DNA of 64,000 nt, taken from assembly GCA_023410645.1 (NCBI GenBank), contig JAEYPQ010000030.1:11680-75679 (forward strand), read 5' to 3'. Below the pieces are notes generated by a model. That model was given only the letters and a program-made list of their open reading frames with translations. It searched no databases and was not told where the DNA came from. Every line of letters starts with the position of its first letter. Position 1 is the stretch's first letter. Position numbers and translations under genes: made by a program. This DNA comes from Bacillota bacterium (GTDB lineage: Bacteria > Bacillota > Clostridia > TANB77 > CAG-465). This document shows, in pieces, positions 5,926-63,067 of this stretch.

Positions 5926-7890
5926 GTGTTAGATAATTATTATACTCAAAAATATACTAGACTTTTAAGTAGACAGTTTAGGAATATACAAGAGGTTACA
6001 GAAGAAATAATAAATTTACAAGCAATACTTAATTTACCAAAAGGTACAGAAATATTTGTTAGTGATATACATGGGGAATATGATATATTTTCTCATATAT
6101 TAAATAATGGTGCAGGAATAATAAAAAGTAAAATAGAAGATGTACTTGGAGATACAATTACTGAATCTGAAATGAAATCTTTAGCAACACTTATATATTA
6201 TCCTGAGGAAAAATTATCAATAATGAAAAAGAATGTTGATGATTTAGATAACTGGTATACAATAATTCTTTATAGACTTATTATGGTAGCAAAACAAGTA
6301 AGTTCTAAATACACACGTTCTAAGGTGAGAAAAGCTCTACCACAAGGATTTGATTATATAATTGACGAACTTTTAAATGTATCAATAAATGGTAAAGATA
6401 AGGATAGCTATTACAAAGAAATAATAAAATCAATAATAGAACTAAAAAGAGCTGATCAGTTTATAATAGCAATTTCTGATTTAATAAAGCGTATGGCAAT
6501 TGACCATCTCCATATAGTTGGTGATATTTATGATAGGGGGCCAAAACCTAAACAAATAATTGATGAATTAATTAAATTTCATAGTTTAGATATACAGTGG
6601 GGAAATCATGATTCAAATTGGATGGGCGCTGCTTGTGGAAATGAAGCTTGTATTTGTAATGTTGTTAGAATATGTTCAAGATATGATAACTTAGATACCC
6701 TAGAAAATGGATATGGAATAAATATAAGACCATTAACAACATTTGCACTTGAAGTATATAAAGATGATCCTTGTAAAGAATTTATTCCAATTACTGTTGG
6801 AGATAATAAATACTGTAATAGTGATAAAGATATTATTTCAAAAGTACATAAAGCTATTACAATAATACAGTTTAAAATTGAAGCAGAGTTAATTAGAAAA
6901 CACCCGGAATATGAAATGGGTAATAGATTGCTCCTAGATAAAATAAATTATAAGAATGGTACTATAAATATTGATGGAATTAATTATGAATTAAAAGATA
7001 AGAATTTTCCAACAATAAATAGTGATAATCCATTTGAGTTAACGCAGGAAGAAAAAGAAGTAATAGCAAGATTAAAAGAGTCATTTATAAATAGTGAAAT
7101 TTTAAAATCACACATTACCTTTTTATATGAAAACGGGGGACTATATAAAATATTTAATTCTAATTTACTTTTTCATGCATGTATTCCTATTAATAAGGAT
7201 GGAGAATTTGAAAAAGTAAAATTATTTGATAAAATTTTATCAGGTAAGGAATATTTAGATTATTTGGAAACCATAATGCATAAAGCTTACTTTAAGGAGA
7301 ATGATGATGAAAATGAATATTTAGACTTTATGTGGTATTTATGGTGTGGTAAGAATTCACCACTTTTTGGAAAAGATAAAATGGCTACATTCGAAAACTA
7401 TTTTTTATATGACTCAGAAATAAAAAAAGAGATTAAAAATCCATATTATACTTTAATAAATAAAGAAGAGATATGTGATAAGGTATTGTTAGAATTTTGC
7501 CTTAATCCACAATATTCACACATAATTAATGGTCATACTCCAGTTATGGAAACAAAAGGTGAATCTCCAATACGTTCTAATGGAAAATTGTTAGTTATAG
7601 ATGGGGGATTTGCAAAAGGATATAGAAATCAAACAGGTAATGCTGGATATATACTTACATATAATTCATATGGATTAGTACTTACTGCAAATGAACCATT
7701 TGAATCTAAGCAAAAGGCAATTGAAGAAGAATTAGATGTACAATATAAAATTGTGGTAAAAGAAAAAGATATAGAGAGAAAAAGAGTAAAAGATACTGAT
7801 ATTGGTGAAAAATTAAAAGATGAAATTGAGGATTTGAAGATTTTACTTGAAGCATATAGATTAGGAATTATTAAAGAAAAAAATATATAA
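5926..7890 (+). CDS. fbp: Fructose-1,6-bisphosphatase class 3
   Basis: Full-length similarity to Firmicute class III FBPase (B. subtilis Fbp/YydE). Shared motifs include ILNLPKGTE, SSKYTRSK.RKALP, DHLH.VGDIYDRGP, IQWGNHD and HIINGHTPV. Start placed at GTG 5926, 8 nt after GGAG (5914-5917); the six-frame ORF opens at TTG 5893. Confidence 0.85.
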   Translation: MLDNYYTQKYTRLLSRQFRNIQEVTEEIINLQAILNLPKGTEIFVSDIHGEYDIFSHILNNGAGIIKSKIEDVLGDTITESEMKSLATLIYYPEEKLSIMKKNVDDLDNWYTIILYRLIMVAKQVSSKYTRSKVRKALPQGFDYIIDELLNVSINGKDKDSYYKEIIKSIIELKRADQFIIAISDLIKRMAIDHLHIVGDIYDRGPKPKQIIDELIKFHSLDIQWGNHDSNWMGAACGNEACICNVVRICSRYDNLDTLENGYGINIRPLTTFALEVYKDDPCKEFIPITVGDNKYCNSDKDIISKVHKAITIIQFKIEAELIRKHPEYEMGNRLLLDKINYKNGTINIDGINYELKDKNFPTINSDNPFELTQEEKEVIARLKESFINSEILKSHITFLYENGGLYKIFNSNLLFHACIPINKDGEFEKVKLFDKILSGKEYLDYLETIMHKAYFKENDDENEYLDFMWYLWCGKNSPLFGKDKMATFENYFLYDSEIKKEIKNPYYTLINKEEICDKVLLEFCLNPQYSHIINGHTPVMETKGESPIRSNGKLLVIDGGFAKGYRNQTGNAGYILTYNSYGLVLTANEPFESKQKAIEEELDVQYKIVVKEKDIERKRVKDTDIGEKLKDEIEDLKILLEAYRLGIIKEKNI

Positions 7891-52342: not shown

Positions 52343-52429
52343 GCCGAAATGGTGGAATTGGCAGACGCGCTAGACTCAAAATCTAGTGGTAGCAATACCG
52401 TGTGGGTTCGAGTCCCACTTTCGGCACCA
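52343..52429 (+). tRNA. tRNA-Leu (anticodon CAA), long variable arm, CCA encoded
   Basis: Acceptor GCCGAAA/TTTCGGC, anticodon stem CTAGA/TCTAG with loop CTCAAAA, variable-arm stem GGTA/TACC, T-arm GTGGG-TTCGAGT-CCCAC. Followed by hairpin GATGAAG...CTTCATC plus T-run (52440-52467). Confidence 0.85.
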
Positions 52430-52439
52430 GACCATATGA

Positions 52440-52467
52440 GATGAAGAGTTAATGCTTCATCTTTTTC
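52440..52467 (+). terminator. Rho-independent terminator after tRNA-Leu
   Basis: GATGAAG - AGTTAATG - CTTCATC followed by TTTTT. Confidence 0.6.
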
Positions 52468-52492
52468 TATATATAAAATATGGGGGAGTTAG

Positions 52493-53296
52493 ATGATATA
52501 TTTAAAAACTTTTAAACTTAGTGATAATAGAAGTAAAAATTATAATATATATCCATATAATGTGTTAAGAGGTAAAGAACCTGATATTTTTATATTTGAT
52601 AATATAACTGTTTTATATGGTAATAATGGTTCAGGAAAATCTACAATTTTAAATATAATTGCTAATAAATTAAATTTAAATGGAAAAGATAAGATACCTT
52701 GTCAGAGATTTTTTAATGAATATATATCTTTGTGTGAATATAGTTTAGGAAATGATGAATACGGTAAAGTAATTAAAATGATACCTAATGAAAGTAGATA
52801 TATTAAGAGTGAAGAATTATTATATGAGGTTAGTAAAATACAAAATAATAGTATTTTAGAAGAAAGTTATATATTAAATAAAGTTAAAGAGGGCATGGAT
52901 GAAGAAAAGGCTAAAGAATCTATTTATACTAAACAAGGAGTGAAAGAGCTAGAAAATATAAGATTTGCACAAGAAAAATATTCCAATGGTGAAACTGCTA
53001 TGCAGTGCCTTGTTGATAAATTAGAACCAGATAAATTATATTTATTAGATGAGCCAGAAGTATCGTTATCTATACAAAGTCAAATAGAATTAGCTAATAA
53101 TATAAATCATATGGCAAGATACTTAAATTGCCAATTTATTATATCAACTCATTCACCATTTATGCTGGGGACATTAAATGCAAAAATATATAATTTAGAT
53201 ACTAAGAATTATGATGTACAAAATTGGAATGAGCTTGAAAATGTAAAATTATTTTATAAATTCTTTAAAGATAAAGAAAATGAATTAAAAAATTGA
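52493..53296 (+). CDS. Stand-alone ABC-type / AAA_21-like P-loop ATPase (267 aa)
   Basis: Walker A LYGNNGSGKSTILN, Q-loop region, Walker B LYLLDEPEVSLS, H-loop ISTHSPF. No transmembrane partner or second domain. RBS GGGGGAG upstream. Confidence 0.6.
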   Translation: MIYLKTFKLSDNRSKNYNIYPYNVLRGKEPDIFIFDNITVLYGNNGSGKSTILNIIANKLNLNGKDKIPCQRFFNEYISLCEYSLGNDEYGKVIKMIPNESRYIKSEELLYEVSKIQNNSILEESYILNKVKEGMDEEKAKESIYTKQGVKELENIRFAQEKYSNGETAMQCLVDKLEPDKLYLLDEPEVSLSIQSQIELANNINHMARYLNCQFIISTHSPFMLGTLNAKIYNLDTKNYDVQNWNELENVKLFYKFFKDKENELKN

Positions 53297-53366
53297 TATA
53301 TAACATTTATCATAATAAATATAGTAGATAATATGCGAGTTTATATATAAAAGACACTTGCAATAT

Positions 53367-53453
53367 GCCGAAATGGTGGAATTGGCAGACGCGCTAGACT
53401 CAAAATCTAGTGATAGCAATATCGTGTGGGTCCGAGTCCCACTTTCGGAACCA
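53367..53453 (+). tRNA. Degenerate second copy of tRNA-Leu(CAA) (probable pseudo-tRNA)
   Basis: First 47 nt identical to the copy at 52343. Four substitutions in the 3' half: variable-arm stem GGTA/TACC becomes GATA/TATC (compensatory pair), T-loop TTCGAGT becomes TCCGAGT (loss of U55), and acceptor 3' TTTCGGC becomes TTTCGGA (G1:A72 mismatch). Followed directly by TTTTTTG. Confidence 0.5.
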
Positions 53454-53481
53454 TTTTTTGTGTAGTTTTGTTTTTACAAAG

Positions 53482-53865
53482 CTATACATTTTTTTTAAAT
53501 AGTTTTATAATTTTAGTAACTATTACCATAAATAAAATAACAGTAATAAAGGGTACACAATATAAATAAAAAAGTGTACTACTCATAGTATACTTTAGTA
53601 ATCCACTACTAAGAATTGTATCCCCTAAATACAAGAATAGATAGAAAATAAAAAAACTAAAAGATATTAATAATAAGTTAAATTTGTTTTTAACATAAAT
53701 TGAAAATATGAAAATAGTAGTTACTAAATAAAATATGATTATGAAAGGTATAGAAAAAAGTGAAAGCTGATTTGTAAGCAATATTATTAACCACAGTAAC
53801 GTAAAAACTAGTGTTGGAAATAAAAGTACTAAAATATATTGAAAAATTTTATTCATTGCATTCAC
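53482..53865 (-). CDS. Small polytopic membrane protein (127 aa), unknown function
   Basis: Four predicted TM helices. No motif recognised. Confidence 0.35.
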   Translation of the reverse strand: MNAMNKIFQYILVLLFPTLVFTLLWLIILLTNQLSLFSIPFIIIFYLVTTIFIFSIYVKNKFNLLLISFSFFIFYLFLYLGDTILSSGLLKYTMSSTLFYLYCVPFITVILFMVIVTKIIKLFKKNV

Positions 53866-54052
53866 CTTCTTTACTATTTGAATTATATCATATATAAAGT
53901 TTTTTTGTAAAGTAATATAAAATAATATAATATTAATGAATACAATTGTTAAAAAATTTTGAATAATAAATTAAAAGGTTATAAACATAGAATGTTAAAT
54001 TAAAAATCAGTGTACTTTTAAAGTACACTGATTAATTATTATATTTAATATA

Positions 54053-55283: not shown

Positions 55284-56060
55284 ATGGTTATTTTGAATAT
55301 AGAAATAAATAATATAAAAATAAATTATATAGTAAAAGGTGATTCTGATAAGAAAATATTACTACTTCATGGTTGGGGATCTAATATTAAGCTTTTTAAC
55401 AATATAATTGAACACTTATCTAAGGAAAATACAGTTTATGCACTAGATATGCCAGGATTTGGAGAAAGTCAATTACCTAATAATTCATGGAATGTGGATA
55501 ATTATGTTGATTTCATAATAGAATTTATTAAAATAATGAAAATAGATAAATTATCATTACTTGGTCATTCTTTTGGCGGAAGAGTAATTATAAAACTCTC
55601 AAATAGAGAAAATTTACCTTTTGAGATATCAAAATTAATACTTGTAGATAGTGCAGGTATTTTGCCTAAGAAAAGCAATAAAAGCTCATTTAAGACTAAA
55701 ATATATAAATTATGTAAAGTGGTACTAAAGAATAAAGTTGTAAGTAAAATTTTTCCTAATGCTTTAGAAAATTTAAAGAAGAAGTTTGGATCAGAAGATT
55801 ATAAAAATGCTATACCGGTAATGAGAGAAACTCTGGTAAAAGTAGTTAATGAAGATTTAGAACCTTTACTTAAAAATATAAAGCAGCCAACATTGCTAAT
55901 TTGGGGAGATAAGGATGAAGCTACTCCATTTGAAGATGCAAAAATAATGGAAAGTCTTATACCTAATTCTGGAATAGTAAGGGTAGAGGGGGCTGGACAT
56001 TATTCATTTTTAGAACAACCAATTCTAATTAATAAAGTATTAGATTCATTTTTAAATTAA
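55284..56060 (+). CDS. Alpha/beta-fold hydrolase
   Basis: HGWGSN oxyanion region and nucleophile elbow GHSFGG, with C-terminal Asp/His region (GDKDEA...GAGHY). Start uncertain: ATG 55284 vs TTG 55293. Confidence 0.65.
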   Translation: MVILNIEINNIKINYIVKGDSDKKILLLHGWGSNIKLFNNIIEHLSKENTVYALDMPGFGESQLPNNSWNVDNYVDFIIEFIKIMKIDKLSLLGHSFGGRVIIKLSNRENLPFEISKLILVDSAGILPKKSNKSSFKTKIYKLCKVVLKNKVVSKIFPNALENLKKKFGSEDYKNAIPVMRETLVKVVNEDLEPLLKNIKQPTLLIWGDKDEATPFEDAKIMESLIPNSGIVRVEGAGHYSFLEQPILINKVLDSFLN

Positions 56061-56075
56061 TGAAAGGAATAGATA

Positions 56076-57632
56076 ATGGAAAATATATTATTTTTACTCA
56101 TTACAATATCATTTTTTATAAATTTTTATATGTACTTTATTTTTAATGTACATATATATCAACTAAATCATTATGGTACTAAATCACAGATAAATTGGAT
56201 TTTTAAAAATAAGAAGAGATTGTTATTAAGAAGTATAAGTATAGTTAATATTATATTATTTTTCTTAGGTGATATAGGAAAAATAGCATCAATTATAATA
56301 TTCCTTATAGCAGCATATTTAAACATACAAAAAGAAACTAAAATACCGATTGTATATACTACTCGTGTTAAAAGATATATTATTACTTCATTTATTATTA
56401 TTGCTTTAATAATAACAATATTAAAGTTGTATTTTATAAATAATATAGTTACACTAATTTCATTTCCAATAATAATATTATTAACACCATTTATTCTTAT
56501 AGTTGCTGATTATATAAATTTGCCAATAAATAAGCTTATAAAGAATTATTATATAAATGATGCTAAAAAAATATTAAAAAATATGCCAAACCTAATAGTT
56601 ATAGGTGTAACAGGTAGTTATGGAAAAACAAGTACAAAGAACTTTTTGTATAAGCTCTTATCTGCAAAATATAATGTATTAATTACTCCTGAAAACTATA
56701 ATACAACTCTTGGAGTTGTTAAAACAATTAGAAATAATTTAAAGGCCACTCACGAAATATTTGTTTGTGAAATGGGTGCATACAGAGTTGGTGAAATAAA
56801 AGAAATATGTGATATTGTAAGACCAAAATATGGAATAATTACATCAATTGGTCCACAGCATTTAGAGAGTTTCGGATCAATTGAAAATATAATTAAAACT
56901 AAATTTGAACTGGCAGATAGTGTACCAGAAGATGGGATTGTATTTTTAAATTATGATAATGAATATATGGAAAGAAATAAGATAAATAAAAAAGTAGTAC
57001 CTTATGGAATAGAAAATGAAACAAGTAATCAATATAATGCTTATGATGTAACTTCAACAAATAGAGGACTTACTTTTAAAATGAAAGATGAAAATAATAA
57101 TGAAAAAATATTTAGAACAAGTTTACTTGGAAAGCATAATGTTGAAAATATTGTTGGTTCAATCGCAGTAGCAAATAAATTGGGTATTCCTATGGATACT
57201 TTAATATCTAAGGTTAAATTACTTGAAAGTGTACCACATAGATTACAACTAATTAATACACCAAATTGTATAATAATTGATGATGCATATAATTCAAATC
57301 CAAGTGGATCAAAATCCGCAATAGATACTTTAGGAACGTTTAATGGAATAAAAATACTGGTTACTCCTGGAATGATAGAACTTGGAGAAAAGCAATATGA
57401 ATGTAATTATGAATTTGGAGCTTACGCTGCAAATGTTTGTGATTATATAGTTTTAATTGGAAAAGAACAAACAAAGCCTATTTATGATGGTATAATCTCA
57501 AAAGATTATAATAAAGATAAAATAATAATAGCAGACACTTTACAGGAAGGCTTAAATGTGGTATATCAGATTAAAACTGATGGGAAAGAAAAGATTATAT
57601 TACTAGAAAATGATCTACCAGATAATTATTAA
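56076..57632 (+). CDS. murF: Mur ligase family protein (MurF-like) with about 150-aa N-terminal polytopic membrane extension
   Basis: Residues 1-150 form four or five hydrophobic helices. They are followed by a Mur ligase P-loop GVTGSYGKTSTK, a central domain and a C-terminal domain. Immediately upstream of ddl, as murF usually is. Confidence 0.6.
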   Translation: MENILFLLITISFFINFYMYFIFNVHIYQLNHYGTKSQINWIFKNKKRLLLRSISIVNIILFFLGDIGKIASIIIFLIAAYLNIQKETKIPIVYTTRVKRYIITSFIIIALIITILKLYFINNIVTLISFPIIILLTPFILIVADYINLPINKLIKNYYINDAKKILKNMPNLIVIGVTGSYGKTSTKNFLYKLLSAKYNVLITPENYNTTLGVVKTIRNNLKATHEIFVCEMGAYRVGEIKEICDIVRPKYGIITSIGPQHLESFGSIENIIKTKFELADSVPEDGIVFLNYDNEYMERNKINKKVVPYGIENETSNQYNAYDVTSTNRGLTFKMKDENNNEKIFRTSLLGKHNVENIVGSIAVANKLGIPMDTLISKVKLLESVPHRLQLINTPNCIIIDDAYNSNPSGSKSAIDTLGTFNGIKILVTPGMIELGEKQYECNYEFGAYAANVCDYIVLIGKEQTKPIYDGIISKDYNKDKIIIADTLQEGLNVVYQIKTDGKEKIILLENDLPDNY

Positions 57633-57648
57633 AATGGAGGGATTTAAA

Positions 57649-58842
57649 ATGAAAATTAAAGTTGGAGTTTTTTTTGGAGGACAGAGTGTTGAACATGAGG
57701 TTTCAATAATTTCTGCAATACAAGCAATAAATAATTTTGATCATGATAAATATGATATTATTCCTGTTTATATCACAAAAGAAAATTATATGTTTGTTGG
57801 AGAAGATATTGGGAATATAAAAGAATATAGAGATATAAATAAGTTAATATCAAAGAGTCAAAGAATAATATTAGTTAATGATAATAATAAATGTGAATTA
57901 ATAAAATATCCAATGAAAAAGTTTACAAAGAATGTTTATGATTACATAGATATTGCATTTCCAATTGTACATGGTACAAATGTTGAAGATGGAATATTGC
58001 AAGGATATTTAAAACATTTAAATGTACCTTTTGTTGGATGCGATGCTTTATCATCAGCAATTGGTATGGATAAGTATGTTATGAAAGCTGTTTTAAAAGA
58101 AAATGATATACCAGTTCTAGATTGCATGAGTTTTAATTTGAAGGATTATAACGAGGGCATTGAAAATATTATTACAAAAGTAGAATCAAATATTGAATAT
58201 CCAGTTATAGTTAAGCCAATAAATCTAGGATCTAGTGTTGGAATAAAAATTGCTAAAGATAAAGAAAAATTAGATGAGGCAATTGAATATGCTTTTCAAT
58301 TTTCAAATAGAATATTAGTTGAACATGCTATATCTGAGCTAAAAGAAATAAATTGCTCTGTACTTGGTGATTATGAAGAAGCAATAGCATCAGAGTGTGA
58401 AGAACCGATTAATACAGATGAGATTTTAAGTTATGAAGATAAATATATATCAAATGGTGGCAAAACAAGTGGATCTAAAGGAATGAGTAGCCTTAAAAGA
58501 AAGCTTCCAGCTGATATTTCAGAAGATATAAAAAAGGAAATTCAAGAACTTGCAGTTAAGACATTTAAAATACTTGGATGTAATGGTGTATCTAGAATAG
58601 ATTTTATGATAGATAAAGCAATAGATAAAGTATATGTAAATGAAATTAATACAATTCCTGGTTCTTTAGCATTTTATCTATGGGAAGCAACTGGTTTAAA
58701 ATACAAAGAATTATTAGATAAATTAATAACAATTGCATTAAAAAGATCAAGAGAAGAAGAACAAGTTTCCTATTCTTTTGAAACAAACATATTATCAGGA
58801 ATTGAACTTGGTGGAACTAAGGGTACAAAACTAGGGAAATAA
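57649..58842 (+). CDS. ddl: D-alanine--D-alanine ligase
   Basis: ATG 57649 is 9 nt after GGAGGG; the six-frame ORF opens at 57610 inside murF. Motifs IKVGVFFGGQSVEHEVS, ATP-grasp EYPVIVKPINLGSSVGI and C-terminal NEINTIPG. Confidence 0.85.
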   Translation: MKIKVGVFFGGQSVEHEVSIISAIQAINNFDHDKYDIIPVYITKENYMFVGEDIGNIKEYRDINKLISKSQRIILVNDNNKCELIKYPMKKFTKNVYDYIDIAFPIVHGTNVEDGILQGYLKHLNVPFVGCDALSSAIGMDKYVMKAVLKENDIPVLDCMSFNLKDYNEGIENIITKVESNIEYPVIVKPINLGSSVGIKIAKDKEKLDEAIEYAFQFSNRILVEHAISELKEINCSVLGDYEEAIASECEEPINTDEILSYEDKYISNGGKTSGSKGMSSLKRKLPADISEDIKKEIQELAVKTFKILGCNGVSRIDFMIDKAIDKVYVNEINTIPGSLAFYLWEATGLKYKELLDKLITIALKRSREEEQVSYSFETNILSGIELGGTKGTKLGK

Positions 58843-59148: not shown

Positions 59149-59239
59149 TATTAAAAATACAGGTATATTTTAAAGATATGCCTGTATTTTTTTATTTGTA
59201 ACTTGATTTTAAGATAGTTTATTAGTATAATATATATAT

Positions 59240-59313
<74 letters not shown>

Positions 59314-59828
59314 ATTATAGAGTAATCAATGTTTAAGTTTTTATATATAAGAAAAAGCTAGTAATTCCAATAGGAAACTAGAATTTTTGTTATTTAAAGA
59401 TATATTTGTTACATTTTATTTATGTGAAGATAATGATTACTCAGTTTATAAAGCAGTTATTGAAATGGCTAATATAGTAAAAATATGTTGAATTTAAAAG
59501 CAAAAAAGTATATAATTTTAGTGAGGAAAAGCCTTATGGATAAGTTAAAAGTATTATGTGGAAACATTTTAGATTATTTAGATGGTAAGAATGCAATTGT
59601 TAATTCAAATAACCAATATATGATATGTGGTAGTGGTTTGTGGAGCAATATTTATAAGAGCAGGTAAAGATATATCAGAAGAATATTTTAAAAAAGTGTC
59701 CAATTCTTTTATAAAAGAAATAATTGACATAGGAATTAAAGTTGTATAGAAGATATAGATAAAGAAATGATAGATAAACATTCGTAAAAAAATAATGTAA
59801 TTATATAATGATTTTGGTGGTAATAATA

Positions 59829-60629
59829 ATGGGAAAAATATATGAAAAAATAAAAGAAGAAGAAATATTATGCAAGGATGTAGTCGTTCCAGAATATTTT
59901 CCTGCAATATATATAGATGAATATGATAATGTATACTGTTATGCTGGAATAATTGATAAAAATAGATTTTTATTTGGGTCTTGTCCATATTGGTTAAAAG
60001 GCAGAAAACCAAAGGAAATAAATAATAGTATTAGAGGTTATTTTAGAATAAAGAATGGAAAAATTTTACAAGACAAAAAGTTTATAGATGAGAAAAATTC
60101 TTTTAATGAAAAGGCTAAATTTAAAATGATTCCTGCACATGTTCACTTTCCAGCTCCGCAAGATATGACTTTTGGTATATACTCTAGTACATATCAAGAT
60201 TTAGAAAAAGAATTAACGGCGAAAGTGTTTGGTATTTCTTACGATGATTTATTGGAAATTCTTTATCAATATAATAATATTTTTAAAGTCGCTCAAAAAA
60301 CATATTTTAATAATTATCCTAAAATTACTAGATCAATTAAAAATAATAATTATTGTGATTTGAGCGGAATGTGGATTCCTAAAGAATTTCCATATATTGC
60401 TTTTTGTGAAAGTGACTACTATTATTCTCATATTTCACTTTATGGATTTTATCAACATATGAAATTTATAACTTCATGTGATATTGATTCTATTATATCA
60501 AAACAATTGATATCAAATGGCTTAAACCCAGAGATATTAAACGTGTTATTTAATATGGATAGTGATGATTATATTAGCAGGCCAATTGATGAATATTTAT
60601 TTAATGAATTAAATGATTGTTATCAATAA
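59829..60629 (+). CDS. Hypothetical protein (266 aa)
   Basis: ATG 59829 is 8 nt after GGTGG; the six-frame ORF opens at 59808. Cys/Tyr/Phe-rich. No motif recognised. Confidence 0.35.
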   Translation: MGKIYEKIKEEEILCKDVVVPEYFPAIYIDEYDNVYCYAGIIDKNRFLFGSCPYWLKGRKPKEINNSIRGYFRIKNGKILQDKKFIDEKNSFNEKAKFKMIPAHVHFPAPQDMTFGIYSSTYQDLEKELTAKVFGISYDDLLEILYQYNNIFKVAQKTYFNNYPKITRSIKNNNYCDLSGMWIPKEFPYIAFCESDYYYSHISLYGFYQHMKFITSCDIDSIISKQLISNGLNPEILNVLFNMDSDDYISRPIDEYLFNELNDCYQ

Positions 60630-61027
60630 AAAATATTGTATTTAAATAGAATAGACTTATTATTTAATAAAGTGTCTTGGTATGTCTTAAAGTGTTCTGC
60701 AGTTGTATTAAATCGCATTAAGTTTTTAAAGTAGAGCTGAAGATCATTGAAGCAATTGGAGTGATATTCCAAGTTTAAAACAGTTTAATATGAATATTAA
60801 GTTTACTAATGCAGTCTTTTAACATGGTTTATTTGAAGGTTCATTTAAATTAAATGAAGATGATAGTGTTAAAGAATATATATTAGGAAATGTATTAGAT
60901 TAGACCTTTATAAAAGGTTTGTCGCCTGTTGGAAAATTTCTACATTTATAGAGTAATCAGACCCTTGATTTTTTATAAAATTTATATAATTAGTTAGTAA
61001 TACAAATAGTGATTTGTAGGAGGTATT

Positions 61028-61351
61028 ATGAATAATATTGAAAAAGAAATAAAAGTAATTACTATTTGTGGTAGTCTTAAATTTAAAGATGAAATGATGA
61101 AAGTAGCAATGCAAATGGAATTGGAAGGAAATGTTATTTTAACTCCAATATTTCCAATAACTGATGATAAAGATGCTTATACTAAAGAAGAGGTAATTAT
61201 GCTTGGTAAAATGCACAAAGAAAAAATAAAGTTATCAGATGCTATTTTAGTTGTCAATGTAAATGGCTATATAGGTAATAGTACAAAAAGTGAAATTGAA
61301 TATGCAAAAGTTCAAGGAAAAGAAATATTATATTTAGAAAAGGATAAATAA
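61028..61351 (+). CDS. Hypothetical protein (107 aa), possibly nucleoside 2-deoxyribosyltransferase-like fold
   Basis: RBS GGAGGT upstream. ICGSLKF....ILTP pattern is reminiscent of the DUF4406 / deoxyribosyltransferase-like family. Low-confidence recollection. Confidence 0.3.
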   Translation: MNNIEKEIKVITICGSLKFKDEMMKVAMQMELEGNVILTPIFPITDDKDAYTKEEVIMLGKMHKEKIKLSDAILVVNVNGYIGNSTKSEIEYAKVQGKEILYLEKDK

Positions 61352-61706
61352 AGCAAATATTATTACATCAGAAGAATTTTAGAGTAAAAAAAATGAATAG
61401 ATAAGCTAAATGGTCTAATGCCTGTTTGAAGATTGATCCAAAAGATATAATTGTCTTACTAAAAAAATTAATGATTAAATCAACTGAAATATGTTGATTT
61501 TTTTTTTGTGTTGTTGAAAAGAAAATATAGATGTGATAATATATAAAAAAAGAAATCAATATAAATAGCTAAAGAATTAAAGTCTAAAAATCAAATGTTA
61601 TGGATTCAAAAGATGAATAACATTAAGAATATAGCTGAAAAATTATTTTAAATTATGTAAAGCTTGTGAGATAAATAGTAATTTGGAGAGAATGTGAGGT
61701 TATAGA

Positions 61707-62474
61707 ATGGAAGATTTACCTTTGAATACTGATTTTATAAACTTAACAACAGAGAATCTTGTTAATGAGCATTTATGTTGCATTATCCGCAGTAAAAAGA
61801 TTCATCAAGGTGTTGAGGCAAAGAGACAATGGCTTTCTAACCGATTAAGTGAAGGTCATGTCTTTAGAAAGTTAAATGCAAAAGCTACAGTTTTTATTGA
61901 ATATGCTCCTCTTGAAACTTCTTGGGTTCCTATTATTGGGGACAACTATTATTATCTGTATTGTTTATGGGTTTCTGGTGATTACAAGGGAAAAGGGTAT
62001 GGAAAATCTTTGATGGAGTATTGTTTAGCTGATGCCAAAGAAAAAGGAAAATCTGGTATTTGTATGCTCGGAGCAAAAAAACAAAAATCTTGGCTTACTG
62101 ACCAATCATTTGCCAAAAAATTTGGATTTAAAGTTGTAGATACTACTGATAGTGGATATGAATTGCTTGCACTTTCTTTTGATGGAACAACACCAAAGTT
62201 TACACAAAATGCTAAACATGAAAAAATTGAAAGTAAAGAACTAACAATCTATTATGATATGCAATGTCCATATGTCTATCAAAATATTAAGATTATAAAA
62301 CAGTATTGTGAAATGAATTCTATTCCTGTATCTTTAATTAAAGTAGATACATTACAAAAAGCAAAGGAATTGCCTTGTGTTTTCAATAACTGGGGTGTAT
62401 TTTATAAGGGAAATTTTGAGACAGTGAATTTGTTGTTAGATGTTGAATACTTAAAGAGAATACTCAAAAAATGA
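61707..62474 (+). CDS. GNAT-family N-acetyltransferase-like protein (YoaP-like, 255 aa)
   Basis: Acetyl-CoA-binding-like segment YLYCLWVSGDYKGKGYGKSLMEYCLADAKEKG. C-terminal extra domain of ~90 aa. Confidence 0.45.
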   Translation: MEDLPLNTDFINLTTENLVNEHLCCIIRSKKIHQGVEAKRQWLSNRLSEGHVFRKLNAKATVFIEYAPLETSWVPIIGDNYYYLYCLWVSGDYKGKGYGKSLMEYCLADAKEKGKSGICMLGAKKQKSWLTDQSFAKKFGFKVVDTTDSGYELLALSFDGTTPKFTQNAKHEKIESKELTIYYDMQCPYVYQNIKIIKQYCEMNSIPVSLIKVDTLQKAKELPCVFNNWGVFYKGNFETVNLLLDVEYLKRILKK

Positions 62475-62605
62475 AAAATATTAAGGATAGGCAGAATAGT
62501 TTGTTTTGAATGAAATAATTTTACTCTATAGATTATTTTTTGTATAAATGATATACTATTTATGATACAAATGGTAATTTGTAAAATCAAAAGGAGGAAA
62601 TGAAA

Positions 62606-63067
62606 ATGGCAAAATCAGAATGGTATGAGAGAAAAAACGGAAAAGTAGAACATTTAGTTTATTTAAATGACAAAGCAAAAGAGTTAGATAAGCTAATTAA
62701 TAATGAAAAGACAATGATTATAAGGGGGGCAGCAGGTAAAAAATGTCCTTTAGGTGGTCGTGCAAAAGTAAATGATGACATATATTTTGTTGAAACTGGT
62801 GGAGATATGATAGTAACGCATAAAGGAATTATTTCAAAAGTAATTGAAAGTGAAAAGATGACTCCAGAAGAATCAGAAGAATTTATAAAAAAATATGAAA
62901 AGGAACTGAATCTATCAAAAGACCAATATAAAAGATGGAATGGTAAAAAGTTTTTAGCCGTTTATGAAATATCAGAACTAAAAGAAATTGATCATTTTAA
63001 GTATAATCGTGAAAATAATATGGATGACTGGATTATTACAGATGATATAAAGAAAATCAAATTATAA
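62606..63067 (+). CDS. Hypothetical protein (153 aa), possible ASCH/PUA-like fold
   Basis: ATG 62606 is 8 nt after AGGAGGA; the six-frame ORF opens at 62600. No strong motif. Confidence 0.35.
   Translation: MAKSEWYERKNGKVEHLVYLNDKAKELDKLINNEKTMIIRGAAGKKCPLGGRAKVNDDIYFVETGGDMIVTHKGIISKVIESEKMTPEESEEFIKKYEKELNLSKDQYKRWNGKKFLAVYEISELKEIDHFKYNRENNMDDWIITDDIKKIKL

What the first reader, a model, noticed from the sequence alone, without database searches (positions are those of the whole stretch)
52343..53453. Full-length tRNA-Leu(CAA) duplication bracketing a lone P-loop ATPase; the distal copy is degenerate but keeps a compensatory variable-arm pair
Two 87-nt tRNA-Leu(CAA) sequences lie 1024 bp apart, each behind a similar TATATAAA-containing upstream region. 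Their first 47 nt are identical and the 3' halves differ at four positions. In the second copy, the variable-arm stem GGTA/TACC becomes GATA/TATC (pairing preserved). However, U55 of the T-loop becomes C, and the acceptor end becomes G1:A72, so it is probably non-functional. The only gene between the copies is a 267-aa stand-alone ABC/AAA_21-like ATPase (Walker A GNNGSGKST, Walker B LLDEPE, H-loop STHSP) with no partner. Small ATPases of this type are frequent in phage-defence and abortive-infection islands. The arrangement looks like a tRNA-targeted insertion or duplication that carried the ATPase as cargo.
Basis: seen in the sequence. Interest (0 to 1): 0.6.

Follow-up and report, generated by a model that had tools for sequence, protein, structure and literature searches.

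The report
Duplicated leucine tRNA around lone ATPase
A leucine tRNA gene occurs twice, 1 kb apart, around a small ATPase gene of unknown function; the second copy looks damaged, and the layout is best explained as a one-off rearrangement among tRNA genes, not a mobile defence element.

Summary
Two 87-nt tRNA-Leu(CAA) genes (52343-52429 and 53367-53453) form a 90-nt direct repeat with four differences. An independent assembly confirms both junctions. Copy 2 alone has C55 and a G1:A72 mismatch, and it has the lowest Rfam tRNA score in the window (43.2 bits; the other eight score 56.7-70.8). Its GATA/TATC variable arm is a natural allele found in normal tRNA-Leu(CAA) genes elsewhere.

The 267-aa ATPase belongs to a large, highly conserved family of single-domain ABC/AAA_21-type ATPases in Clostridia. 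In 80 other genomes it has no conserved neighbour and, with one exception, no adjacent tRNA. The exception is the closest relative (89% identity). There the order is tRNA-Leu(CAA), 3.5 kb, ATPase, tRNA-Gly(TCC).

The window keeps that tRNA-Gly promoter plus the first 9 nt of tRNA-Gly right after the ATPase, joined to copy 2. So the layout reflects recombination among tRNA genes. There is no integrase, no partial att-type repeat and no compositional anomaly. The defence assignment is not supported: matches to defence ATPases cover only the shared ABC-ATPase motifs, and no effector partner is present.

Verdict: real, lineage-specific and mostly ordinary. The ATPase's function remains unknown.

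The parts
52343..52429 (+). tRNA-Leu(CAA) copy 1. It is canonical and presumably the working gene.
   Evidence: ARAGORN. Rfam tRNA 56.7 bits. 100% identical to the single tRNA-Leu(CAA) of the relative L001. All cloverleaf stems are paired, -26.6 kcal/mol on the cloverleaf.
52438..52463 (+). Intrinsic-terminator hairpin plus T-run directly after copy 1. It overlaps the region upstream of the ATPase.
   Evidence: Terminator scan. Fold -10.2 kcal/mol, z = -2.7. A degenerate counterpart lies upstream of the ATPase in L001.
52433..53343 (+). Block shared with the relative L001 (its 5946-6900). It holds the ATPase leader, the ATPase gene, the tRNA-Gly promoter and tRNA-Gly nt 1-9.
   Evidence: blastn 90% identity over 852 bp. 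Local alignments extend the homology left to 3 nt after the CCA of copy 1 (p = 0.002) and right to 53343 (no shuffle of 500 scored as high).
52493..53296 (+). 267-aa stand-alone ABC/AAA_21-type ATPase.
   Evidence: ORF. Pfam AAA_21 at 50.5 bits, plus AAA_15 and ABC_tran. Family alignment with 70% column identity. dN/dS 0.14 against the L001 orthologue. AlphaFold2 mean pLDDT 85.8.
53306..53343 (+). Remnant of a tRNA-Gly(TCC) gene: its promoter region plus GCGAGTTTA, which is nt 1-9 of the tRNA.
   Evidence: Aligns to L001 6869-6906, just upstream of and into its intact tRNA-Gly. It is closer to the L001 tRNA-Gly than to the window's own tRNA-Gly: it has T6 and the AATATAGTAG insert. The 32-mer occurs once in the window, with 0 expected by chance.
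53344..53363 (+). 20-nt linker of uncertain origin (TATATAAAAGACACTTGCAA) between the tRNA-Gly stub and the repeat.
   Evidence: Similarity to the copy-1 leader is not significant (p = 0.09). There is a weak alternative match to tRNA-Gly nt 20-31.
53367..53453 (+). tRNA-Leu(CAA) copy 2. It is full-length but carries C55 and G1:A72, so it is likely a pseudogene or a poorly functional gene.
   Evidence: ARAGORN. Rfam 43.2 bits, the lowest of the nine tRNAs. C55 and A72 are unique among 16 aligned tRNA-Leu(CAA) genes. Cloverleaf -21.2 kcal/mol.
53459..53488 (.). Strong hairpin terminator after copy 2, shared with the convergent ORF.
   Evidence: Terminator scan. Fold -14.9 kcal/mol, z = -6.5.
59203..59313 (+). 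Intact tRNA-Gly(TCC) with its promoter. It is a paralogue of the stub at 53306-53343.
   Evidence: ARAGORN. Rfam 67.7 bits. 85% identical to L001 6851-6974.

Best explanation
**Ancestral block (inferred).** The region is a lineage-specific rearrangement among tRNA genes, not an integrase-borne island. The ancestral linked block was tRNA-Leu(CAA), terminator, lone ATPase, tRNA-Gly(TCC). The nearest relative still has this order, with 3.5 kb of extra genes after its tRNA-Leu.

**The rearrangement (junction shown, mechanism inferred).** In this genome a recombination or deletion event cut the tRNA-Gly after nt 9 and joined the stub, through a 20-nt linker, to a second full-length tRNA-Leu(CAA) gene.

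**Origin of copy 2 (inferred).** That second gene, or at least its 3' half, came from a distinct, once-functional tRNA-Leu(CAA) allele. This would explain the compensated GATA/TATC variable arm, which is a natural variant elsewhere.

**State of copy 2 (lesions shown, consequences inferred).** Copy 1 makes copy 2 redundant. Copy 2 carries two changes at positions that are otherwise invariant in the aligned set. U55C removes the G18-U55 tertiary contact that bacterial LeuRS depends on. C72A opens the terminal acceptor pair. Copy 2 is therefore a decaying or weakly functional tRNA gene.

**The ATPase (fold shown, role not shown).** The gene is under purifying selection. It encodes a complete ABC-type nucleotide-binding domain with a helical insertion of about 70 residues. 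By fold it most likely acts as an ATP-driven dimerising clamp or switch. Its cellular role is unknown, and nothing ties it to tRNA or to defence.
For: **Repeat and lesions**
- establish the repeat and the four differences.

**The junctions are real**
- Independent contigs confirm them.

**Comparison with the relative L001/L008**
- It has a single tRNA-Leu(CAA) identical to copy 1, 3.5 kb upstream of an 89%-identical ATPase. An intact tRNA-Gly(TCC) follows the ATPase after 94 nt.
- Window 53306-53343 matches that tRNA-Gly promoter plus nt 1-9. No shuffle of 500 scored as high.
- Homology on the left runs up to 3 nt after copy 1's CCA and includes a terminator that is intact here and degenerate in L001.

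**The variable-arm allele**
- 13 normal tRNA-Leu(CAA) genes from the metagenome contigs found carry GATA/TATC together with T55 and a paired 1:72.
- A compensated pair among four random changes has p of about 0.02.

**No mobile-element signature**
- No integrase or transposase is found in the surrounding genes.
- GC content is flat across the region.

**The tRNA association is not a family trait**
- 78 of the 80 genome loci have no tRNA within the fetched flanks (up to 4 kb each side).
- Only the relative L008 has a tRNA next to the ATPase.

**ATPase**
- dN/dS is 0.14.
- U55's role in leucylation comes from PMC2377443.
Against: - The order of events cannot be reconstructed from two genomes.
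- The closest syntenic relative (SRR25666306, about 90% nt identity) has an IS3 remnant right after HU, and its contigs end before the informative junction. No true 'empty site' was therefore seen.
- The link between tRNA-Leu and the ATPase in the relative spans 3.5 kb and could be coincidence.
- Copy 2 still scores above Rfam's gathering threshold, keeps A73, the anticodon loop and all other stems, and has its own terminator. Some function is not excluded.
- No expression or aminoacylation data exist.
Confidence: 0.55

Rival explanations
1. **Duplicative (Campbell-type) insertion of the ATPase as cargo.** A circularised fragment from a related donor carried tRNA-Leu, terminator, ATPase, tRNA-Gly promoter and 9 nt of tRNA-Gly. 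It integrated by one homologous crossover inside the resident tRNA-Leu. Copy 1 would then be resident 5' plus donor 3', and copy 2 would be donor 5' plus the resident 3' allele, which later decayed.
For: - Full-length direct repeats flank the block.
- All four differences lie 3' of a 46-nt identical stretch (p about 0.045).
- Copy 1 is identical to the relative's tRNA-Leu.
- The block ends inside a foreign-type tRNA-Gly.
- The ATPase sits in a different context in the relative.
- No close ATPase homologue was found for the SRR25666306 relative. The database holds only the 100% and 89% proteins, then 67% or less.
Against: - No donor with tRNA-Leu directly abutting the block is known.
- The 20-nt linker does not match the relative's tRNA-Leu leader.
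- There is no compositional signal.
- dS of 0.35 against the relative is similar to the roughly 10% nt divergence seen with the syntenic sister species, so vertical descent is equally possible.
Confidence: 0.22
2. **Two working isoacceptor genes.** Copy 2 is a functional, if unusual, tRNA-Leu(CAA) paralogue kept for dosage or for a special role. The gene between the copies is incidental.
For: - Copy 2 passes Rfam's gathering score (43.2 against 29).
- It keeps A73, the CAA anticodon loop, an encoded CCA, a compensated variable arm and its own terminator.
Against: - C55 and A72 are absent from all 15 other aligned tRNA-Leu(CAA) genes.
- It has the lowest score of the nine tRNAs in the window.
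- The cloverleaf is 5.4 kcal/mol weaker, and the minimum-free-energy fold is not a cloverleaf.
- The G18-U55 contact is needed for leucylation in bacteria (PMC2377443).
Confidence: 0.1
3. **Functional ATPase-tRNA module.** The lone ATPase works together with the downstream tRNA or tRNA-like RNA, for example as a defence or translation-surveillance unit that uses a decoy tRNA.
For: - In both members of this sub-clade, a co-oriented tRNA gene follows the ATPase within 70-95 nt with no strong terminator between them.
- The nearest solved homologues, matching only in the shared ATPase motifs, are AriA and PtuA of defence systems.
Against: - 78 of 80 family loci have no tRNA within the fetched flanks, and the two distant ones that do are not adjacent.
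- The downstream tRNA differs between the two genomes (Gly versus Leu).
- No nuclease partner is present.
- Defence-model matches are partial.
- Gene contexts are heterogeneous.
Confidence: 0.05
4. **Assembly artefact.** A metagenome mis-join occurred at a tRNA sequence shared by two organisms.
For: The source is a metagenome-assembled contig, and tRNA repeats are classic break points. Logan contigs do break inside the repeat.
Against: - The k = 141 contig spans the 90-nt repeat with flanks on both sides.
- Independent contigs cover HU into copy 1, and copy 1 through the ATPase into copy 2.
- Copy 2's unique substitutions require real reads.
Confidence: 0.02

Closest known systems
attL/attR tRNA repeats left by integrase-mediated genomic islands (attR fragments mis-called as tRNA genes, PMC9897764)
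   Same: Direct repeats of tRNA sequence bracket DNA that is absent from this position in a relative. The distal copy scores lower and is probably non-functional.
   Different: Here the whole 87-nt tRNA is repeated, not a 3' fragment. The bracketed DNA is one 0.9-kb gene block with no integrase or excisionase. The block ends in a stub of a different tRNA gene (Gly). There is no compositional anomaly.
Bacterial tRNA gene duplicates and tRNA pseudogenes
   Same: A redundant second copy of an isoacceptor gene carries substitutions at universally conserved positions and has a reduced covariance-model score.
   Different: A protein gene and the remnant of another tRNA gene separate the copies. One of the differences is a compensated stem pair that matches a natural allele, which suggests the copy was functional or came from a distinct allele.
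AAA_21/AAA_15 (ABC- or OLD-type) ATPases of defence systems: PtuA (Septu, retron), AriA (PARIS), the GajA ATPase domain
   Same: It has the ABC-type fold with Walker A, a signature-like YSNGE, Walker B/D-loop LLDEPEVSLS and H-loop THSP. These are the best sequence and structure matches in the PDB.
   Different: It is only 267 aa, with a helical insert of about 70 residues in place of the large coiled-coil or dimerisation inserts. It has no HNH or Toprim partner and no fused nuclease. Matches cover only the conserved motifs (about 40-50 bits; Foldseek TM about 0.4). Its neighbours in 80 genomes are unrelated.
Homology-facilitated illegitimate recombination and Campbell-type integration (PMC3240628)
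   Same: A short stretch of perfect homology (the tRNA) at one side and an illegitimate joint (inside tRNA-Gly) at the other would give this kind of junction.
   Different: This is purely inferential here. No donor, no empty site and no clear microhomology at the joint could be shown.

Membership tests
Integrase-mediated tRNA-targeting island (attL/attR) | A tyrosine or serine recombinase gene at one end of the inserted DNA | tested here: not met
   The genes from 48.9 to 63 kb are YchF, a SpoVB-like protein, HU, the ATPase, an ORFan, a Na/Ca exchanger, a hydrolase, a Mur ligase, Ddl, unknowns and a GNAT. None is a recombinase.
Integrase-mediated tRNA-targeting island (attL/attR) | The distal repeat is a partial tRNA, usually the 3' part, corresponding to the att core | tested here: not met
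   The repeat is TAT plus the complete 87-nt tRNA, including the 5' end.
Integrase-mediated tRNA-targeting island (attL/attR) | An empty site (a single tRNA without the insert) in close relatives | tested here: inconclusive
   The relative L001 has a single tRNA-Leu(CAA) but in a different neighbourhood. The syntenic relative (L090, L101) has an IS remnant after HU, and its contigs end before the site.
Canonical functional bacterial tRNA-Leu (copy 2) | A fully paired acceptor stem with a G1:C72-type terminal pair | tested here: not met
   Copy 2 has G1:A72. All 15 other aligned tRNA-Leu(CAA) genes pair at 1:72.
Canonical functional bacterial tRNA-Leu (copy 2) | The conserved T-loop T54-Psi55-C56, with the G18-U55 tertiary contact needed by LeuRS | tested here: not met
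   Copy 2 has C at position 55. T is found there in all 15 other aligned genes. The role of G18-U55 is from PMC2377443.
Canonical functional bacterial tRNA-Leu (copy 2) | Discriminator A73, a long variable arm, the CAA anticodon loop, and a score above the Rfam gathering threshold | tested here: met
   A73, a paired variable arm (GATA/TATC) and the anticodon loop are intact. The Rfam score is 43.2 bits against a threshold of 29.
Canonical functional bacterial tRNA-Leu (copy 2) | Expression, processing and aminoacylation in vivo | not testable with these tools
   This needs tRNA-seq, Northern blots or acid gels. The two copies can be told apart by the variable-arm polymorphism.
Septu PtuA / PARIS AriA / Gabija GajA defence ATPases | A full-length match to the family model | tested here: not met
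   PADLOC best hits reach about 53 bits and cover only two short stretches. NCBIfam PtuA scores 34 bits against a cut-off of 500, and MAD3 scores 23 against 420.
Septu PtuA / PARIS AriA / Gabija GajA defence ATPases | An adjacent or fused nuclease effector (PtuB HNH, AriB Toprim, GajA Toprim) | tested here: not met
   The window has no such gene. No neighbour is conserved across 80 loci. Family members are almost all single-domain proteins of 265-310 aa.
ABC transporter nucleotide-binding subunit | A cognate permease or substrate-binding gene in the same operon, and a match to transporter NBD models above their cut-offs | tested here: not met
   There is no permease next to it here or consistently elsewhere. 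The best transporter model, TupC, scores 48.6 bits against a cut-off of 400.
Pfam AAA_21 (PF13304) P-loop ABC-type ATPases | A score above the Pfam gathering threshold, with Walker A, Walker B and H-loop present | tested here: met
   50.5 bits against a threshold of 27. The motifs are invariant in the 29-sequence alignment.

The most novel reading that the evidence does not exclude
The arrangement may act as a recombination lock that stabilises the ATPase gene. All four differences lie 3' of the 46-nt identical stretch. Nearly every RecA-mediated pop-out between the repeats would therefore delete the ATPase and leave only a tRNA-Leu(CAA) with copy 2's defective 3' half (C55 and/or A72). If tRNA-Leu(CAA) matters for fitness, loss of the ATPase block would be counter-selected. 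That would be an addiction-like retention of a lone gene with no toxin or integrase. A related possibility is that the ATPase and the downstream tRNA form a co-transcribed functional unit.
Probability: 0.07. Interest if true: 0.6.

Novelty: new member of a known kind. Interest (0 to 1): 0.25.

Why it matters
For annotation, copy 2 should be flagged as a probable tRNA pseudogene and should not be counted as a second tRNA-Leu(CAA).

The locus also shows that full-length tRNA repeats around a gene are not enough on their own to call an integrative element or a defence island. The tRNA-Gly stub is a clean record of recombination between tRNA genes.

The most useful by-product is the ATPase family. 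It is a large family (2,773 proteins at E <= 0.001), highly conserved (55-67% identity in MAGs labelled from several Clostridia groups) and entirely uncharacterised. These lone ABC-type ATPases of about 270 aa have no fixed partner, and the family deserves a functional study in its own right.

Tried and rejected
**Searches for the copy-2 sequence**
- Exact or degenerate 70-mers of the tRNA's 3' part found nothing in JGI metagenomes or in viral contigs. A viral scan for the variable arm also found nothing. There is thus no sign that the degenerate copy is conserved or phage-borne.

**Anchoring on neighbouring genes to find an empty site**
- The 124-aa ORF next to copy 2 has no homologue among 5.8 billion proteins.
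- The exact-protein look-ups for that ORF and for the Na/Ca exchanger returned only the same organism.
- The 92%-identical Na/Ca exchanger contig of the sister species ends 100 nt past the gene.
- Other exchanger homologues lie in unrelated contexts.
- HU-anchored contigs of more distant relatives carry tRNA-Leu(TAG), which is a different gene.

**A cassette signature**
- I looked for a shared att- or attC-like motif in the 200-nt flanks of 78-79 family loci. All flank similarity came from closely related genomes.

**A conserved partner gene**
- Clustering three neighbours on each side in about 75 loci gave no cluster in more than 7 genomes.

**Phage or plasmid carriage of the ATPase**
- Only homologues with 40% identity or less were found. 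A plasmid context was again a mixed array of small enzymes.

- It is not significant.

**Structure search**
- It gave only generic ABC, OLD and SMC-head matches (TM about 0.4).
Full report
**1. Checking the observation**

ARAGORN finds nine tRNA genes in the window. Two are tRNA-Leu(CAA), at 52343-52429 and 53367-53453. The repeat finder reports one 90-nt direct repeat, made of TAT plus the 87-nt tRNA. Its copies are 96% identical and 1024 nt apart.

The two copies differ at four positions:
- G47A and C56T are the two partners of one variable-arm base pair. GGTA/TACC becomes GATA/TATC, and pairing is kept.
- T66C is U55->C in the T-loop.
- C83A is C72->A, which gives G1:A72.

Outside the tRNA the flanks are unrelated.

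It matches Pfam AAA_21, AAA_15 and ABC_tran.

The arrangement is not an assembly artefact:
- In an independent Logan assembly of SRR13358440, one contig runs from HU into copy 1 (L091).
- In the same assembly, a 1035-bp contig runs from inside copy 1, through the ATPase, into copy 2 (L004).
- The k141 contig spans both repeats.

**2. Is copy 2 a working tRNA?**

The Rfam tRNA model gives 56.7 bits for copy 1 and 43.2 bits for copy 2. The other seven tRNAs in the window score 57.4-70.8. On the canonical cloverleaf, copy 2 is 5.4 kcal/mol weaker, and its minimum-free-energy fold is not a cloverleaf.

A metagenome scan for the GATA/TATC variable arm found 14 contigs. ARAGORN calls a tRNA-Leu(CAA) gene in 13 of them. 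All 13 have T at position 55 and a paired 1:72.

Two conclusions follow:
- The variable-arm difference is a natural, functional allele. Two of four random substitutions would form a compensated pair with a probability of only about 0.02.
- C55 and A72 are unique to copy 2 among the 16 aligned sequences.

Published mutagenesis shows that bacterial LeuRS depends on A73 and on the tertiary core, including the G18-U55 contact (PMC2377443). Copy 2 keeps A73 but loses U55. I conclude that copy 2 is probably a pseudogene or a poor substrate. This step is an inference, because no expression or charging data exist.

**3. The ATPase family**

The protein search returned 2,773 proteins at E <= 0.001. The best 120 are all 265-295 aa long. 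Apart from two close relatives (100% and 89%), they are 59-67% identical to the query. A 29-sequence alignment shows 70% mean column identity, with invariant Walker A, a YSNGE signature-like motif, LLDEPEVSLS and THSP.

An exhaustive profile search gives 213 clusters (at 50% identity) with E <= 1e-30. Almost all are single-domain proteins of 265-310 aa.

The AlphaFold2 model (pLDDT 85.8) is an ABC/SMC-head-type fold with a helical insertion of about 70 residues. Foldseek's best PDB matches are the ATPase domains of OLD, GajA, retron Eco8 and PtuA, but the TM-scores are only about 0.4.

Sequence matches to solved AriA and PtuA structures and to PADLOC or NCBIfam defence models cover only the conserved motifs and fall far below the family cut-offs. 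PtuA, for example, scores 34 bits against a cut-off of 500.

In 80 genomes (Clostridia and Lachnospiraceae MAGs from gut and rumen) the gene has no conserved neighbour. The largest neighbour cluster occurs in 7 genomes. Neighbours include NTPase_I-T, TPR, Fic, SLFN_AlbA_2, histidine phosphatase, Sua5/YrdC, ASCH, peptide deformylase and MazG. No shared flank motif exists. Phage and plasmid collections hold only homologues with 40% identity or less.

So the ATPase is a conserved, lone gene whose genomic neighbourhood varies from genome to genome, and its role is unknown. Neither a defence role nor a transporter role passes its membership test.

**4. tRNA association across the family**

Of the 80 genome loci, 78 have no tRNA within the fetched flanks of up to 4 kb on each side. 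Two loci have unrelated tRNAs more than 2 kb away. Only L008 has a tRNA next to the ATPase. L008 is the same organism as L001, Bacillota bacterium OH_SBrB_46, and its ATPase is 89% identical.

In that relative the order is as follows:
- tRNA-Leu(CAA), identical to copy 1;
- 3.5 kb with two sulfur-amino-acid metabolism genes;
- the ATPase;
- an intact tRNA-Gly(TCC), 94 nt downstream;
- a region with a NikA-like gene, a D12-class methyltransferase and several DUF genes.

**5. The key junctions**

blastn between that locus and the whole window finds only three shared pieces: the tRNA-Leu, the ATPase block (90% nt identity over 852 bp) and the tRNA-Gly with its promoter.

Local alignments extend the shared block in both directions:
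- On the left it reaches window 52433, only 3 nt after the CCA of copy 1 (p = 0.002). This stretch includes a terminator hairpin that is intact here and degenerate in the relative.
- On the right it reaches 53343. There the window retains the tRNA-Gly promoter and GCGAGTTTA, the first 9 nt of tRNA-Gly. No shuffle of 500 scored as high.

The stub resembles the relative's tRNA-Gly (T6 and the AATATAGTAG promoter insert) more than the window's own intact tRNA-Gly at 59240. After the stub come 20 nt of uncertain origin and then copy 2. Each tRNA-Leu copy is followed by its own intrinsic terminator.

The ATPase is under purifying selection (dN/dS 0.14, dS 0.35). The GC profile shows no break. No recombinase is present in the neighbourhood.

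**6. Interpretation**

The shown facts are these:
- There is a full-length tRNA-Leu duplication.
- A truncated tRNA-Gly lies between the ATPase and copy 2.
- The relative has the order tRNA-Leu, ATPase, tRNA-Gly.
- Copy 2 combines a natural variable-arm allele with two unique lesions.

My preferred reading has confidence 0.55. The block tRNA-Leu / terminator / ATPase / tRNA-Gly is ancestral. A recombination or deletion in this lineage cut the tRNA-Gly at nt 9 and fused it to a second tRNA-Leu(CAA) gene or allele. That second gene is now redundant and decaying.

The main rival has confidence 0.22. A circular fragment carrying tRNA-Leu, the ATPase and the Gly stub integrated by a single homologous crossover within the resident tRNA-Leu. 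This would make the ATPase true cargo. It would also explain why all four differences lie 3' of a 46-nt identical stretch (p about 0.045).

The data cannot separate these two readings. The one syntenic sister species available (about 90% nt identity) has an IS3 remnant directly after HU, and its contigs stop short of the informative junction.

Three other readings were considered and rated low: classical integrase-mediated insertion, a functional ATPase-tRNA module, and misassembly.

**7. Novelty and verdict**

The feature is real and was accurately described. Biologically it is a lineage-specific rearrangement among tRNA genes with a probable tRNA pseudogene, which is a new instance of known phenomena. 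The defence-island reading is not supported.

The most novel reading that remains possible is a 'recombination lock'. Any pop-out of the ATPase between the repeats would leave only the defective tRNA, so the lone gene would be stabilised (probability about 0.07).

Interest is 0.25. The residual interest lies mainly in the large, conserved and uncharacterised family of lone ATPases.

Noticed in passing
window 53482-53865 (- strand): The 124/127-aa predicted membrane ORF convergent on copy 2 has no homologue among 5.8 billion proteins other than itself, and no Pfam or NCBIfam hit. The 53.4-54.0 kb stretch has only 18-24% GC. It may not be a real gene, or it may be a very young one.
   Followed up: partly
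L090 4880-5505 and L092 (Logan SRR25666306 and SRR25666314): A sister species (about 90.6% nt identity over YchF, the SpoVB-like gene and HU; identical HU protein) has what reads as an IS3-family transposase remnant immediately after the HU terminator, where the window has tRNA-Leu copy 1. An rve-domain transposase gene lies at the other end of the same contig. The interval downstream of HU therefore appears to be a rearrangement hot spot.
   Followed up: partly
L001 6898-12804 (relative, ERZ27268983 k141_91219; same locus as L008, JAEWRE010000043.1): Downstream of the relative's tRNA-Gly(TCC) lies a run of genes with a mobile- or defence-island flavour: a NikA-like gene, DUF3644, a D12-class methyltransferase and a DUF6996/DUF6997/DUF7226 protein. 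None of this DNA is present in the window.
   Followed up: no
80 family loci L008-L087: Members of the ATPase family usually sit in tightly packed, co-directional arrays of unrelated small genes (NTPase_I-T, Sua5/YrdC, peptide deformylase, ASCH, MazG, histidine phosphatase, Fic, SLFN_AlbA_2, RhuM). The intergenic gaps are often under 60 nt. The make-up of these arrays varies even between related genomes.
   Followed up: partly
window 55284-58842: An alpha/beta hydrolase (EstV-like), a Mur-ligase-family protein (518 aa) and a D-Ala-D-Ala-ligase-family ATP-grasp protein (410 aa) form a co-directional trio. The pairing of a Mur ligase with a Ddl-like protein outside a cell-wall cluster may make a peptide-type product.
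   Followed up: no
window 59320-63067: After the intact tRNA-Gly(TCC) come several ORFs without any Pfam hit (273, 107 and 155 aa) and a GNAT acetyltransferase with a C-terminal YoaP-like domain (61707-62474). This may be another variable region at a tRNA 3' end.
   Followed up: no
window 59240-59313 versus L001 6898-6971: The two orthologous tRNA-Gly(TCC) genes differ by a compensated acceptor-stem pair (T6:A versus A6:T) and by a G-U versus G-C pair in the T-stem. This is ordinary covariation and contrasts with the uncompensated lesions of tRNA-Leu copy 2.
   Followed up: no
window 54005-54033: A perfect 13-bp palindromic hairpin lies just beyond the stop codon of the Na/Ca exchanger gene (54053, - strand) and reads as a terminator on both strands.
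   Followed up: no
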